Shown here piece after piece: positions 9,001-12,000 of a stretch of DNA of 64,000 nt. The stretch lies in the NCBI RefSeq assembly GCF_057098645.1, contig NZ_CM169472.1. The stretch is one strand, 5' to 3'. The position numbers are program-made. Numbering within the stretch: the first letter of the stretch is position 1; every line of letters begins with the position of its first letter.

Positions 9001-12000
9001 CAATTCTACTTAACTATCCTTTTCCCGCAAACCGTTTTTATCCCCAGCGGCAAATCGAATACACCACCAGCGCCACCGCCATCGCAATTCCTACCGTTGT
9101 GAATGCTTCAGGCCAGGTCATTGATTCACCTCCTGCGGCGGTTCTGGTAGCGACATCCAGTGGGTTGCTTGCCTAAGATCATTACCCGGACTAACTGCTA
9201 TACCTCCGCGCCGGAACGTGCCTCCGAGATAGCGTGCGGAATATATTAATGGCCCAGCCTCGCTATCGATATTCATCGAAATAAGCACGTTCTGGCTCTT
9301 TTCAGGCATTCGCTCAGTACAGCTTATCCAGCCATCCAGAGTTATCGGAGATCTGGTTGACGTTTCCGAGATTTCCCGAAAATTGTTGGTTGACGAATTC
9401 TTATTTTCCCGAAAGTTTCCGGCCTGAAGCATGGCGACGCGGCAGGCGTTCCAGCCATCAGCATATGTTTTAGTTACACCGTCGAGATGGCAGGTAAGCA
9501 AATCCATTTCATCAGGCACTACCATTGCTATCGGCTCTGCTTCCAGTGATGCCAGCGCGATACGAAACACATTAGCCAGCAGGCTGTCTGAAGACTTGTT
9601 ATCGTGCGCCGAGTCGCTCAGGAAGCCTGTGATGTATGATTTAATCTCCGCGCGTTCTCTGGTAATAGTGCTCATATCAGTTTTCCTTATACGGATTAAT
9701 TTTATTGTGCAGTGCGCTGAATGATTCCCATGTCACATCGGTATATAGCTCAATAACTGGTTCAAATGTCCTTCCAATTATCCAGACCAGTAATAGCGGG
9801 GATATCGGTATCATCAACACTATAAACAGAATGAAAAACAGAAACTCTGTTGTTCTGCTCTTTCGTGGGTAATTTTTTTCTAAATAATGTTTCATTTCTT
9901 ACCGCCCTTTCGGGCGGCCTCCTGATGTTCTGAGGGTGCAGGAATCCCTCCGGTTAAGGATTTAATAAAAATCGTTTCTGATTTAAATCTTCAGTATTTA
10001 GTTGTTAGTTGGTTTATCGCCTTTATGCTTCAGCCTTATTTCGCAACCAGACACAAACCGGGCCATCTTCCGTATCATGAATGGAACCAATAAACCAGCC
10101 ATCGCCCTCTGGTCGTTCCGGTTCCCATGCAGAAATATCAGCATCACACGCATCAAGGTCAGCACATCCTTCATCTCTGAAGCAGAGGACGTATTGAAGA
10201 TTATTTTCCTCCATCCAGGCGTTAAACTCTTCCGTTGAAATATATTCCCGACCATCACAGAATTTTTCATATTCAGGATGTGTCCAGTAGCCATATCCGT
10301 CACGAACTACCGGCATTTCTTTAATTTTACTCACTGTTAACCTCCTGCAACGCTACACGATACGCCTTCTTTATCCACGCCTTACTGCCATATAATTTCG
10401 TCTTCATAATAAACACACCTGCACGACTCGCCGATATCCCCGGACAGGTTAACAGCACAGCATCCACCACACGGTTATGCTTCCGAAACTCCATTACAGT
10501 ACTGCTGATAACCACCTGCCCCACCGGGCCGTAATCCTGATACAGGATTTTCACGCAGACACCCTCCTGTCGAAATAAACGTAGTTATTCACTATGCGCA
10601 GCGGCATGCCTAATTTTCTGGCAATTTCCCTTCTTTGCATGCCTCTCTGATGCAGTTGCCGCGCCAGCTCAATATCACGCTGAGAATATTTTGCCGACGG
10701 GTGAAAATCACCACGTAACATCATGCTGATGCCCAGCTCCCGTGCCTTCGTTCTCACTGCCGCTTCAGTTCGTCCGATAAGTGCGCCAACGCTTTTTACC
10801 TTCCTCGTTCCCGCACACTGCCGGAGTATCATGATTTCCGCCCGGCACCACGTCTTCCACCCACTCACCGCTGCTGTTCTCTGGTGGCGGTAATATCCCG
10901 GAGAATATCCCGGCACTTGTTCAGCTCCCGCAGCGCGGCGCAGACTCGCTCCCACTTCTGAACCTGACCTTTTGCCCGGCGCAGCTCGCGGTTAGCCACA
11001 TGCAGCGATGGTAAAATCAGACCATCCGGATGCTTTCTGGTGAACGACGGCTGTGACTGCACTGTGACCGCCACACTTTCCGTTTTTATTTCTTCCTGTG
11101 TTTCCGCTTCCCCGACTGGTAACGCAACACCTGCTGGCTGAGGAAAGGCTTTACCATCCGTTTCCGCTATGGATGCGGCTTTCGGCTCTGCCGGTAAATC
11201 AGCGCCCGGTATGCAGTACCGAAATTTACCGCCCTGATTCACGCGAATCAGACGCCCTTTGCTGATTGCCATGGCCAGTGATGAATTCGCCCGGCGGGAG
11301 GTAATCCCGAACATCAGTGCCAGCTCATCCGCCGTTTGTGGGCCATGATGTTCAATCGCCTCAGTCAGCATTTGCGCTGTCACTTTCGGTACCGGTGACA
11401 CTGGTTCACTTTCACCAGCCTGAATCAGCCACCACATCGAACCCTTGTTATCCGCTTCACCACGGCGCTTCAGTTTCCACAGTTCGTTGACAGCATCTTC
11501 GCGGCTGATTCCAAGGCGCGATGCCACTACCTGTGAAGAGGCTTTTTTCAGTGCTTTCAGTGCGTCAAATACAGTTTCCATTAAAACGTCCTCCAACAAA
11601 AATTACTTCACAACCCTCTGATTGCTGACATTTGGACGCCAGCTATCCCAGTTAAACGTCACCCACCGACCACCGTTCATGGTCATGCGGTCCATAATCC
11701 TCTCACCAAGAAGCGTGCTCATTGCGGCATGATTCAGGTTTGTTAACATCCCGACACTGCACAGTGATGCTGTCCGGCGATCAATTATCTGGTGTAATAC
11801 CACCTGCTCGTTTTTCGTCTCCCGCTGAACGCCTATTTCATCCAGGACCAGCAAATCAACACTGCAAAGCTCCTGTAAAAATTTTTCCCCGGATTTGCCG
11901 TTGTCGTAGCTGTCATGCAACACGCTCATGACATCAGACACGGTGACGATAATCACGCTGCGCCCCTTCGCCATCAGCCGGTTACCCATCGCCGCTGCAA

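What the first reader, a model, noticed from the sequence alone, without database searches (positions are those of the whole stretch)
9677..10832. Operon of four small unknown proteins (HTH, basic 75-aa, acidic Cys-rich 103-aa, membrane 72-aa) in the prophage early-right region
Between the replication genes and DUF551/hok there is a tightly packed set of small ORFs with overlapping stops and starts. The 103-aa protein is strongly acidic, a property shared by DNA-mimic anti-restriction proteins; the 72-aa protein is a single-pass membrane peptide. Regions like this in lambdoid phages often hold anti-defence or host-takeover genes that are poorly characterised.
Basis: inference. Interest (0 to 1): 0.5.

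Follow-up and report, generated by a model that had tools for sequence, protein, structure and literature searches.

The report
Four small prophage accessory genes
This stretch holds four real but separately inherited small phage genes of unknown function in the early-right operon of a Rac-like E. coli prophage, plus a conserved RNA leader in front of the fourth; it is an ordinary mosaic accessory region, and nothing found here shows an anti-defence system.

Summary
All four ORFs exist on the minus strand and match the RefSeq gene calls. They lie in the early-right operon of a Rac-like lambdoid prophage, between the replication genes and DUF551/hok. All are under purifying selection (dN/dS 0.14-0.29).

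They are not a functional unit. Each belongs to its own widespread, uncharacterised phage family, and each has different neighbours in other phages.

- **P1 (HTH):** probably 105 aa rather than 93. A GTG at 10868 overlaps the upstream stop codon, and a Trp invariant across the four homologues aligned lies upstream of the annotated ATG.
- **P2:** a basic beta-beta-alpha-beta-beta-alpha domain with a generic ACT/BMC-like fold.
- **P3:** a conserved, strongly acidic alpha/beta domain with no Pfam family. It occurs in phages of gamma- and beta-proteobacteria, alone or fused to other domains. Its predicted fold matches no solved structure, so it is not an Ocr/ArdA member. An acidic-decoy role is neither supported nor excluded.
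- **P4:** a DUF4014 single-pass membrane protein, homologous to 933W L0067 and epsilon15 gp46. The gp46 protein was once labelled "acetyltransferase inhibitor"; I could not verify that label.

The 127-nt gap before P4 holds a conserved element of about 65 nt. A GNRA hairpin sits between the Shine-Dalgarno sequence and the ATG. The same element precedes at least eight unrelated genes in 120 or more viral contigs.

Interest is low to moderate.

The parts
10551..10868 (-). P1: small DNA-binding protein with two HTH units. The revised gene is 105 aa, starting at GTG 10868.
   Evidence: PHROG 323, E = 1e-21. The Pfam HTH_7/HTH_3 hits fall below the curated cut-offs. Homologues in phage D6 (orf90, 105 aa, 72% identity), Serratia phage Parlo and Vibrio phage F89 align from W33 of the long ORF, upstream of the annotated ATG. 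W7 of the 105-aa form is invariant in the 4-sequence alignment. GTG 10868 overlaps the DUF1627 TGA stop (read from the sequence).
10327..10554 (-). P2: basic 75-aa protein with a beta-beta-alpha-beta-beta-alpha fold. The GTG start overlaps the P1 stop (GTGA) and follows an AGGAGG Shine-Dalgarno sequence.
10023..10334 (-). P3: strongly acidic 103-aa alpha/beta protein. The GTG start overlaps the P2 stop by 8 nt and follows an AGGAGG Shine-Dalgarno sequence.
9899..9962 (-). Conserved non-coding leader in the P3-P4 spacer. It comprises hairpin I (9932-9950), the AGGAGG Shine-Dalgarno sequence (9918-9923) and hairpin II, CCGCCC-GAAA-GGGCGG (9902-9917), followed by UAAGAA and the P4 ATG (9893-9895).
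   Evidence: The fold z-score is -3.3. The element is over 90% identical in 19 phage records and in 120 or more IMG/VR contigs (capped). In 102 of 120 instances an ATG lies 6-11 nt after hairpin II, opening at least eight unrelated ORF families. Upstream genes also vary. Hairpin II shows a few compensatory and G-U-preserving changes but also mismatches. No Rfam match.
9677..9895 (-). P4: DUF4014 single-pass inner-membrane protein, 72 aa, predicted N-terminus in and C-terminus out.
   Evidence: Pfam PF13198 scores 87.2 bits against a cut-off of 23.2. PHROG 1832, E = 1e-44. Hydropathy peaks at 2.9 over residues 18-41. The N-terminal tail is net positive and the C-terminal tail net negative (from the sequence). 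Homologues include 933W L0067, VT2-Sakai, epsilon15 gp46, epsilon34 gene 27, ES18 gp39 and g341c gene 23.
10865..11599 (-). Context: the DUF1627 (YdaW-like) gene. Its stop codon overlaps the revised P1 start.
   Evidence: Pfam PF07789, E = 9e-79. PGAP annotation.
9118..9675 (-). Context: the DUF551 gene, starting 1 nt after the P4 stop. The same DUF4014-then-DUF551 order occurs in epsilon15 (gp46-gp47).
   Evidence: Pfam PF04448, E = 5e-20. Epsilon15 annotation.

Best explanation
**What it is.** This is a run of four independently assorting accessory genes, not a four-component system. They lie in the delayed-early rightward operon of a Rac-like lambdoid prophage integrated at tRNA-Ser/mtfA. 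No promoter or terminator was predicted between them, so they are probably read through from pR after the replication genes (inferred).

**How they are expressed.** DUF1627, P1, P2 and P3 are linked by overlapping stop and start codons, which suggests translational coupling. P4 is translated from a conserved portable leader. In that leader a GNRA hairpin shortens the 22-nt distance between the Shine-Dalgarno sequence and the ATG to about 6 nt (inferred).

**What each protein is, as shown here**
- P1: a two-HTH DNA-binding protein of 105 aa.
- P2: a basic protein with an ACT/ferredoxin-like alpha+beta sandwich.
- P3: a compact alpha/beta domain with a long acidic loop, from a family without a Pfam entry that is spread across phages of Proteobacteria.
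- P4: a DUF4014 inner-membrane protein with its N-terminus in the cytoplasm.

**Likely roles, inferred with low confidence**
- P3 binds a basic, probably nucleic-acid-binding, host or phage protein as an acidic decoy or adaptor (about 0.25).
- P4 binds and inhibits an integral-membrane envelope enzyme, following the old 'O-polysaccharide acetyltransferase inhibitor' label on epsilon15 gp46 (about 0.25).
- P1 is a small regulator or DNA-binding accessory factor.
- P2 has no assignable role.
For: - **Gene calls and context:**
- **No sigma-70 promoter or intrinsic terminator** on the coding strand between the genes.
- **Four separate families, none with a known function:**
- **Independent assortment of P3.** It follows unrelated genes in Rac-SA53, mEp460, mEp213 (directly after N) and D6, and follows recT in Salmonella prophages.
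- **Independent assortment of P2.** It lies near xis/int in Fels-1, TL-2011c and Klebsiella prophages.
- **Independent assortment of P4.** It lies in the exo-xis region of 933W and in the early-left regions of epsilon15 and g341c.
- **Distribution in E. coli.** Only 506 of 5426 complete genomes hold at least 80% of the stretch, whereas 3110 hold some part of it.
- **Purifying selection** on all four genes.
- **P1 start:**
- **Structures:**
- **Conserved charge:**
- **Leader element:**
Against: - No experiment, and no homology to a characterised protein, supports any of the assigned roles.
- The epsilon15 gp46 'acetyltransferase inhibitor' name is known only from a note in the g341c record. I could not trace it to data because the epsilon15 genome paper is not held. 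The current RefSeq name is a different and equally unexplained phrase.
- Covariation support for the leader hairpins is weak because the copies are over 90% identical. The conservation could instead reflect recent recombination.
- P1 and a P3-type domain co-occur in three unrelated phages: this prophage, D6 and Parlo. That could hint at a link I have dismissed.
Confidence: 0.7

Rival explanations
1. P3 is a DNA-mimic anti-restriction or anti-defence protein in the manner of Ocr/ArdA. Its acidic surface would imitate DNA and block a host nuclease or sensor.
For: - The strong negative charge is conserved, from -11 to -20 in Enterobacterales and -15 in a Burkholderia phage domain.
- Acidic residues are conserved position by position.
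- It is an early gene. In mEp213 it sits directly after N, where lambda carries ral (my knowledge), and in Salmonella prophages it sits next to recET.
- It occurs in many unrelated phages.
Against: - It has no sequence or fold similarity to Ocr, ArdA or any solved DNA mimic.
- It appears as a C-terminal domain of 150-540-aa proteins, which fits a binding or adaptor module better than a stand-alone mimic.
- It was absent from the supplementary files of the one accessory-gene screen I could search.
- dN/dS of 0.14-0.20 gives no sign of arms-race diversification.
Confidence: 0.15
2. P4 (DUF4014) inhibits a host O-antigen acetyltransferase or a similar envelope enzyme. That would make it a lysogenic-conversion or superinfection-exclusion factor.
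For: - The g341c record cites the homologue epsilon15 gp46 (NP_848254) as 'acetyltransferase inhibitor protein', and ArgO145 repeats the name.
- Its single-pass topology with the N-terminus inside would suit binding an integral-membrane enzyme.
- Small phage proteins that alter O-antigen are documented: the D3 iap gene and the Gnarl proteins (PMC12373910).
Against: - No primary evidence for the name was found.
- RefSeq now gives epsilon15 gp46 a different product name.
- Homologues occur in phages of hosts with unrelated O-antigens, namely O157, O145 and Salmonella groups B and E.
Confidence: 0.25
3. The basic P2 and acidic P3, whose genes overlap by 8 nt, form a two-protein module such as a toxin-antitoxin or inhibitor-partner pair. 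Alternatively, all four genes act together.
For: The two proteins carry opposite charges and their genes overlap.
Against: - The genes upstream of P3 in Rac-SA53, mEp213 and D6 are not homologous to P2.
- The gene downstream of P2 in Fels-1 is not homologous to P3.
- Longer P3 family members do not contain P2.
- There are no PADLOC hits.
Confidence: 0.05
4. P4 is a membrane-damaging toxin or holin-like peptide.
For: It is small, has a single transmembrane segment, and lies close to a hok/sok locus.
Against: It matches no toxin or holin family; DUF4014 is the only Pfam hit. It is conserved as an early-operon gene with no antitoxin partner or antisense RNA. The hok/sok locus is a separate, complete module about 700 nt away.
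Confidence: 0.07
5. The conserved 65-nt element before P4 is only a recombination linker, a module-boundary sequence with no role as RNA.
For: It is over 90% identical in front of unrelated genes and behind different upstream genes. Several variants break the hairpin pairs.
Against: - The ATG sits at a fixed 6-11 nt after hairpin II in 102 of 120 copies.
- The GNRA loop is retained, including one GAAA-to-GGCA change.
- C-to-U changes keep G-U pairs on the transcribed strand only, and two double changes are compensatory.
- The fold z-score is -3.3.
Confidence: 0.35

Closest known systems
Lambda nin-region and exo-xis-region accessory genes (NinB-NinH, orf60a/61/63/73, Ea8.5)
   Same: They are small, early-transcribed genes, closely packed or overlapping, and mosaic. 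They sit between the replication genes and Q, or between exo and xis. The families found here occupy both positions in other phages.
   Different: None of the four proteins is homologous to a Nin or exo-xis protein (Pfam, PHROG and NCBIfam scans).
DUF4014 (PF13198): 933W L0067, epsilon15 gp46
   Same: P4 is a full-length member, at 87 bits, 47-72% identity and the same 72-aa length. The motifs YPR.SR..E and LHNK.NPY.E are conserved.
   Different: The family has no demonstrated function. In this lineage the gene carries a conserved structured leader that 933W lacks.
Ocr / ArdA DNA-mimic anti-restriction proteins
   Same: P3 is small, very acidic (pI 4.2) and expressed early.
   Different: P3 shares neither sequence nor fold with them. 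It is a three-stranded sheet with two helices and a long acidic loop.
ACT-type regulatory domains and BMC shell domains (fold level only)
Hairpin-bridged ribosome-binding sites of phage T4 genes 38 and 25 (from my own knowledge)
   Same: The Shine-Dalgarno sequence and the start codon lie too far apart (22 nt). A stable hairpin between them would bring them to about 6 nt.
   Different: The role here is untested. The element also carries an upstream hairpin and is shared by many unrelated genes as a cassette.
Phage D6 orf90 and the PHROG 323 HTH proteins
   Same: P1 is 72% identical to D6 orf90 over 100 residues and has the same 105-aa length once the start is revised.
   Different: These proteins are also uncharacterised. 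The PHROG label 'transcriptional regulator, D5-like' rests on remote clustering.

Membership tests
Ocr/ArdA-type DNA-mimic anti-restriction proteins (P3) | Sequence or profile homology to the Ocr or ArdA families | tested here: not met
   No Pfam hit at E up to 0.1. No PDB sequence hit of any relevance.
Ocr/ArdA-type DNA-mimic anti-restriction proteins (P3) | A fold like a known DNA mimic | tested here: not met
Ocr/ArdA-type DNA-mimic anti-restriction proteins (P3) | A strongly acidic protein whose charge is conserved | tested here: met
   pI 4.2 and net charge -15. The family ranges from -11 to -20. The Burkholderia phage domain is -15 and the Parlo domain -7.
Ocr/ArdA-type DNA-mimic anti-restriction proteins (P3) | Binds and inhibits a restriction enzyme or other DNA-binding defence protein | not testable with these tools
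   This needs co-expression and binding assays.
DUF4014, PF13198 (P4) | A Pfam HMM score above the gathering threshold over the full length | tested here: met
   87.2 bits against a cut-off of 23.2, covering residues 1-72 of 72.
DUF4014, PF13198 (P4) | One transmembrane segment with conserved flanking motifs | tested here: met
   The hydropathy peak covers residues 18-41. 29 columns are invariant across the E. coli and Salmonella phage members.
Hok/Gef or holin-type membrane toxins (P4) | Family HMM match | tested here: not met
   DUF4014 is the only Pfam hit for P4. Hok/Gef matches only the separate gene at 8672-8884.
Helix-turn-helix DNA-binding proteins (P1) | An HTH family match above the curated threshold | tested here: inconclusive
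   HTH_7 scores 21.8-22.2 bits against a cut-off of 23.8, and other HTH models score lower. The PHROG 323 match is strong, E = 1e-21. PGAP names the gene 'DNA-binding protein'.
Type II toxin-antitoxin or other two-gene module (P2 + P3) | The pair is conserved across genomes | tested here: not met
   The neighbours of P3 and of P2 in other phages are unrelated proteins.
Known anti-phage defence systems (all four proteins) | Match to a PADLOC model | tested here: not met
   None of the four proteins hits a PADLOC model.
Lambda Nin proteins | Homology to the NinB-NinH families | tested here: not met
   No such family appears in the Pfam, PHROG or NCBIfam results.
ACT domain (P2) | The ACT fold together with ligand-binding function | tested here: inconclusive
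Known RNA families in Rfam (leader element) | Covariance-model match | tested here: not met
   The only real hit in 8000-12000 is sok. Nothing credible overlaps 9899-9962.

The most novel reading that the evidence does not exclude
Two readings remain open.

1. The P3-type acidic domain has no Pfam entry, matches no solved fold, and numbers at least 640 clusters in phages of gamma- and beta-proteobacteria. It could be a new family of phage-encoded decoy inhibitors of a host DNA- or RNA-binding protein, possibly a defence protein.

2. The 65-nt leader could be a portable cis-acting RNA cassette (anti-SD, hairpin, SD, GNRA hairpin) that sets or regulates translation of whichever accessory gene recombines behind it.
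Probability: 0.2. Interest if true: 0.55.

Novelty: new member of a known kind. Interest (0 to 1): 0.28.

Why it matters
- **Scale.** These four families sit in thousands of E. coli and Salmonella genomes. The P3 homologue P0045 alone is indexed in more than 12,000 assembly blocks. None has a known function, so any assignment would annotate many prophages.
- **Candidate list.** Early accessory genes are where anti-defence and host-takeover functions have repeatedly been found. P3 and P4 are reasonable but unproven candidates.
- **Immediate products.** There are three: a corrected start for a widely annotated gene (P1); a domain family not yet in Pfam (P3); and a conserved leader that may explain how swapped-in accessory genes get expressed.

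Tried and rejected
- **Known-family scans.** Pfam, NCBIfam and PADLOC gave nothing for the four proteins beyond DUF4014 and weak HTH matches. PHROGs placed each in a family, but only families with no established function.
- **PDB sequence searches.** There were no relevant hits for P2 or P3. The PINS/LGN TPR hits for P1 are sums of weak helical-repeat matches, so I dismissed them.
- **Fold searches.** P3 matched nothing in the PDB and only uncharacterised proteins in BFVD. P2 matched only a generic sandwich fold. The afdb50 library was unavailable.
- **P3 versus DUF551.** I tested whether P3 is related to the neighbouring DUF551 protein. It is not.
- **Zinc site in P3.** I considered a site made of H19, C26, H86 and C94.
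- **Conserved gene pairs.** I looked for P2-P3, rac21-P3 and fusion evidence. All were negative.
- **Fusion partners of the P3 domain.** I looked for informative partners and found only unknown PHROGs.
- **Literature.** Searches on DUF4014, L0067 and the RefSeq accessions found nothing, as did searches on the annotation phrases. The epsilon15 genome paper could not be read. The supplements of an accessory-gene screen contain none of these sequences.
- **First P2 homologue search.** It returned only 9 hits because of the word index. The exhaustive search found 42.
- **nut-like reading of the leader.** I considered a boxA-like UCCUUAAC plus a GNRA hairpin. I left this as speculation because the position and spacing do not fit lambda nut sites.
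Full report
**1. What is in the sequence**

All four ORFs lie on the minus strand:
- P1 at 10551-10832, 93 aa as originally called
- P2 at 10327-10554, 75 aa, GTG start
- P3 at 10023-10334, 103 aa, GTG start
- P4 at 9677-9895, 72 aa, ATG start

The 1.36-kb stretch is 100% identical to chromosomes of E. coli O145:H28 and other STEC strains. PGAP annotates exactly these four genes there: 'DNA-binding protein', two 'hypothetical protein' entries and 'DUF4014 family protein'.

The surroundings in strain 95NR1 show a Rac-like lambdoid prophage at tRNA-Ser next to mtfA.
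- One way run integrase, an excisionase-like gene, an exonuclease and dicB.
- The other way run a Cro-like regulator, YdaT, a replisome organiser, a DnaC-like ATPase and DUF1627/YdaW. Then come P1 to P4, DUF551, hok/sok and a YgiW-like gene. In strain RM9872 the same direction continues with DUF968, RusA and DUF1133.

So 'early-right region between replication genes and DUF551/hok' is correct. Rfam confirms sok at 8822-8996.

**2. Real genes, with three corrections**

Each protein has homologues in other genera. Pairwise dN/dS is 0.14-0.29 wherever dS is not saturated. The ORFs are therefore expressed genes, not chance.

Three parts of the description need correcting.

*Spacing.* P1/P2 overlap by GTGA and P2/P3 by 8 nt (GTGAGTAA). 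P3 and P4, however, are 127 nt apart, and P4 and DUF551 are 1 nt apart.

*The P1 start.* Homologues in phage D6 (orf90, 105 aa, 72% identity), Serratia phage Parlo and Vibrio phage F89 all align from the residues WKTW. These lie 6-9 codons upstream of the annotated ATG. Across the four homologues aligned, an invariant Trp falls in that extension. A GTG at 10868 gives a 105-aa protein, the same length as D6 orf90, and overlaps the DUF1627 TGA as GTGA. DUF1627, P1, P2 and P3 then form an unbroken chain of overlapping stop and start codons.

*'Cys-rich'.* Only C26 and C94 of the five Cys in P3 are conserved. Both are absent from a distant homologue.

**3. The four genes are separate modules**

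Each gene falls into its own PHROG family with no established function: 323, 1001, 1372 and 1832. Only P4 has a Pfam family, DUF4014. There are no NCBIfam or PADLOC hits.

Their neighbours differ from phage to phage.
- **P3** follows unrelated small genes in Rac-SA53, mEp460 and D6. In mEp213 it sits directly after N in the leftward operon. In Salmonella prophages it follows recE-recT, near xis and int.
- **P2** homologues lie near xis/int in Fels-1, TL-2011c and Klebsiella prophages. The gene after P2 in Fels-1 is unrelated to P3.
- **P4** homologues lie in the exo-xis region of 933W (L0067) and in the early-left regions of epsilon15, epsilon34 and g341c.

Among 5426 complete E. coli genomes, 3110 carry some part of the stretch but only 506 carry at least 80% of it. 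This is the usual mosaic pattern of lambdoid accessory genes, and it argues against a four-part system or a P2-P3 pair.

**4. What each protein looks like**

*P1* has two HTH-like units joined by a conserved GD.H.S.KYS linker. The Pfam HTH hits fall just below the curated cut-offs. The PHROG match is strong.

*P3* gave a reasonable model (pLDDT 82.9): two helices packed on a three-stranded sheet, with a long, less confident acidic loop at residues 53-79.
- The family is large: 228 clusters by sequence and 640 by profile, none named.
- It reaches phages of Burkholderia, Pseudomonas, Vibrio, Erwinia, Klebsiella, Variovorax and Ralstonia.
- In several of these the domain is part of a 150-540-aa protein whose other parts are also unknown.
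- The negative charge is conserved at -11 to -20, and acidic positions are conserved column by column.

*P4* has a net-positive N-terminal tail, one hydrophobic span at residues 18-41 and a net-negative C-terminal tail of about 30 aa. This predicts the N-terminus inside and the C-terminus in the periplasm.

**5.

*DNA mimic.* Membership of the Ocr/ArdA families fails on both sequence and fold. The one shared property, conserved acidity, is real. Because DNA mimics have no common fold, 'works like a mimic' cannot be excluded. Two observations still count against it. The domain often occurs as a module of larger proteins, and its dN/dS shows no sign of diversifying selection. I give an anti-defence DNA-mimic role about 0.15, and a broader 'acidic binding or decoy module' role about 0.25.

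*Membrane toxin.* Nothing supports this reading for P4. The only functional lead is an annotation trail.
- The g341c record calls its homologue 'O-polysaccharide acetyltransferase inhibitor' and cites epsilon15 gp46 (NP_848254) under the name 'acetyltransferase inhibitor protein'. ArgO145 copies the name.
- The current RefSeq product name for epsilon15 gp46 is 'released from the phage upon host infection', and the PHROG label matches it.
- I could not read the epsilon15 genome paper and found no text supporting either label.

A small membrane protein blocking an integral-membrane O-antigen enzyme is mechanistically plausible. It would have precedents in small phage proteins that alter O-antigen, namely the D3 iap gene and the Gnarl proteins (PMC12373910). 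For P4 it remains a lead only.

**6. The spacer before P4**

The 127-nt gap is not filler.

The element reads AAUCCUUAACC, then hairpin I (GAGGG/CCCUC), a linker, AGGAGG, then hairpin II (CCGCCC-GAAA-GGGCGG), UAAGAA and AUG.
- The Shine-Dalgarno sequence is 22 nt from the AUG, or about 6 nt if hairpin II forms.
- The region folds better than shuffled sequences, z = -3.3.
- In 102 of 120 copies an ATG follows hairpin II by 6-11 nt. That ATG opens at least eight unrelated gene families (a 60-aa acidic protein, DUF4014, DUF551-type proteins and others).
- Upstream genes vary as well. A P3 homologue lies just upstream in 29 of 119 copies.
- Hairpin II shows two compensatory double changes, many C-to-U changes that keep G-U pairs on this strand only, and one GAAA-to-GGCA change that keeps the GNRA loop. 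About a dozen variants break a pair, and overall variation is too low for a firm covariation test.
- There is no Rfam match.

The two explanations are a portable translation-initiation leader, resembling the hairpin-bridged ribosome-binding sites of T4 genes 38 and 25 (my own knowledge), and a module-boundary recombination linker. They are not mutually exclusive.

**7. Verdict**

Reading it as a coherent operon of candidate anti-defence genes is not supported. This is an ordinary mosaic stretch of uncharacterised early phage accessory genes, each already annotated and grouped in PHROGs. Three modest findings came out of the work:
- the probable mis-annotated P1 start;
- recognition of the P3 acidic domain as a large family without a Pfam entry or a known fold;
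- the conserved structured leader shared by many accessory genes.

Interest is low to moderate.

Noticed in passing
window 9899-9962 (minus strand), inside the P3-P4 spacer: A conserved non-coding element of about 65 nt has two hairpins and an AGGAGG placed 22 nt from the P4 ATG (about 6 nt if the GNRA hairpin folds). It precedes at least eight unrelated gene families in 120 or more viral contigs. It has no Rfam match. It could be a portable translation leader, a recombination linker, or both.
   Followed up: partly
window 10833-10868 (minus strand): The P1 gene is probably annotated 12 codons too short in RefSeq. GTG 10868 overlaps the DUF1627 stop as GTGA. The added residues carry a Trp that is invariant in the D6, Parlo and Vibrio phage homologues aligned.
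   Followed up: yes
window 9118-9895; L006 2501-3478 (epsilon15): A DUF4014 gene immediately followed by a DUF551 gene occurs both in this prophage and in epsilon15 (gp46-gp47). According to its genome paper, epsilon34 carries the same block. 933W, g341c and ArgO145 have other genes after DUF4014, so the pairing is not general.
   Followed up: partly
L030-L109 (IMG/VR loci), downstream of the conserved leader: The gene most often found behind the leader encodes a 57-60-aa very acidic protein (MRKFKIIIETGIAGGDFEDEFEVDDDATPDEI...). It is not present in the window and I did not examine it further.
   Followed up: no
PP818812.1 (Actinobacillus phage vB_Apl-pPE4): A phage record assigned to Actinobacillus pleuropneumoniae carries segments 88-96% identical to this E. 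coli prophage region, including the DUF4014 gene and the leader. That is unexpected for a Pasteurellaceae host. It suggests either a misassigned host or contamination, or a recent transfer.
   Followed up: no
L006 2501-2719; PHROG 1832: The product name 'released from the phage upon host infection' on epsilon15 gp46 has spread to PHROG 1832 and to other RefSeq phage records. It has no traceable source, and it replaced the earlier name 'acetyltransferase inhibitor protein'.
   Followed up: partly
window 8672-8996 (minus strand): A complete hok/sok-type locus (Hok/Gef, Pfam E = 1e-22; sok, Rfam 113 bits) lies just downstream of DUF551. A YgiW-like periplasmic OB-fold gene follows at 8208-8552. 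Both look like inserted cargo genes within the operon.
   Followed up: partly
L007 592-1788 (Serratia phage Parlo); L002 2950-5494 (phage D6): A P1-type HTH gene and a P3-type domain gene lie in the same early gene string in three unrelated phages: this prophage, D6 and Parlo. In Parlo they are two genes apart. This may be chance, and I did not test it statistically.
   Followed up: partly
phage records OP743926.1 (Stean), MH426726.1 (Pavtok) and JN585957.1 (PEp14): These Erwinia phages each carry two places matching P3, so the domain is duplicated within a single genome.
   Followed up: no
window 10865-11599: The mechanical ORF for DUF1627 starts at a TTG (244 aa). PGAP starts it 18 nt downstream (717 nt), so the true start is uncertain.
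   Followed up: no
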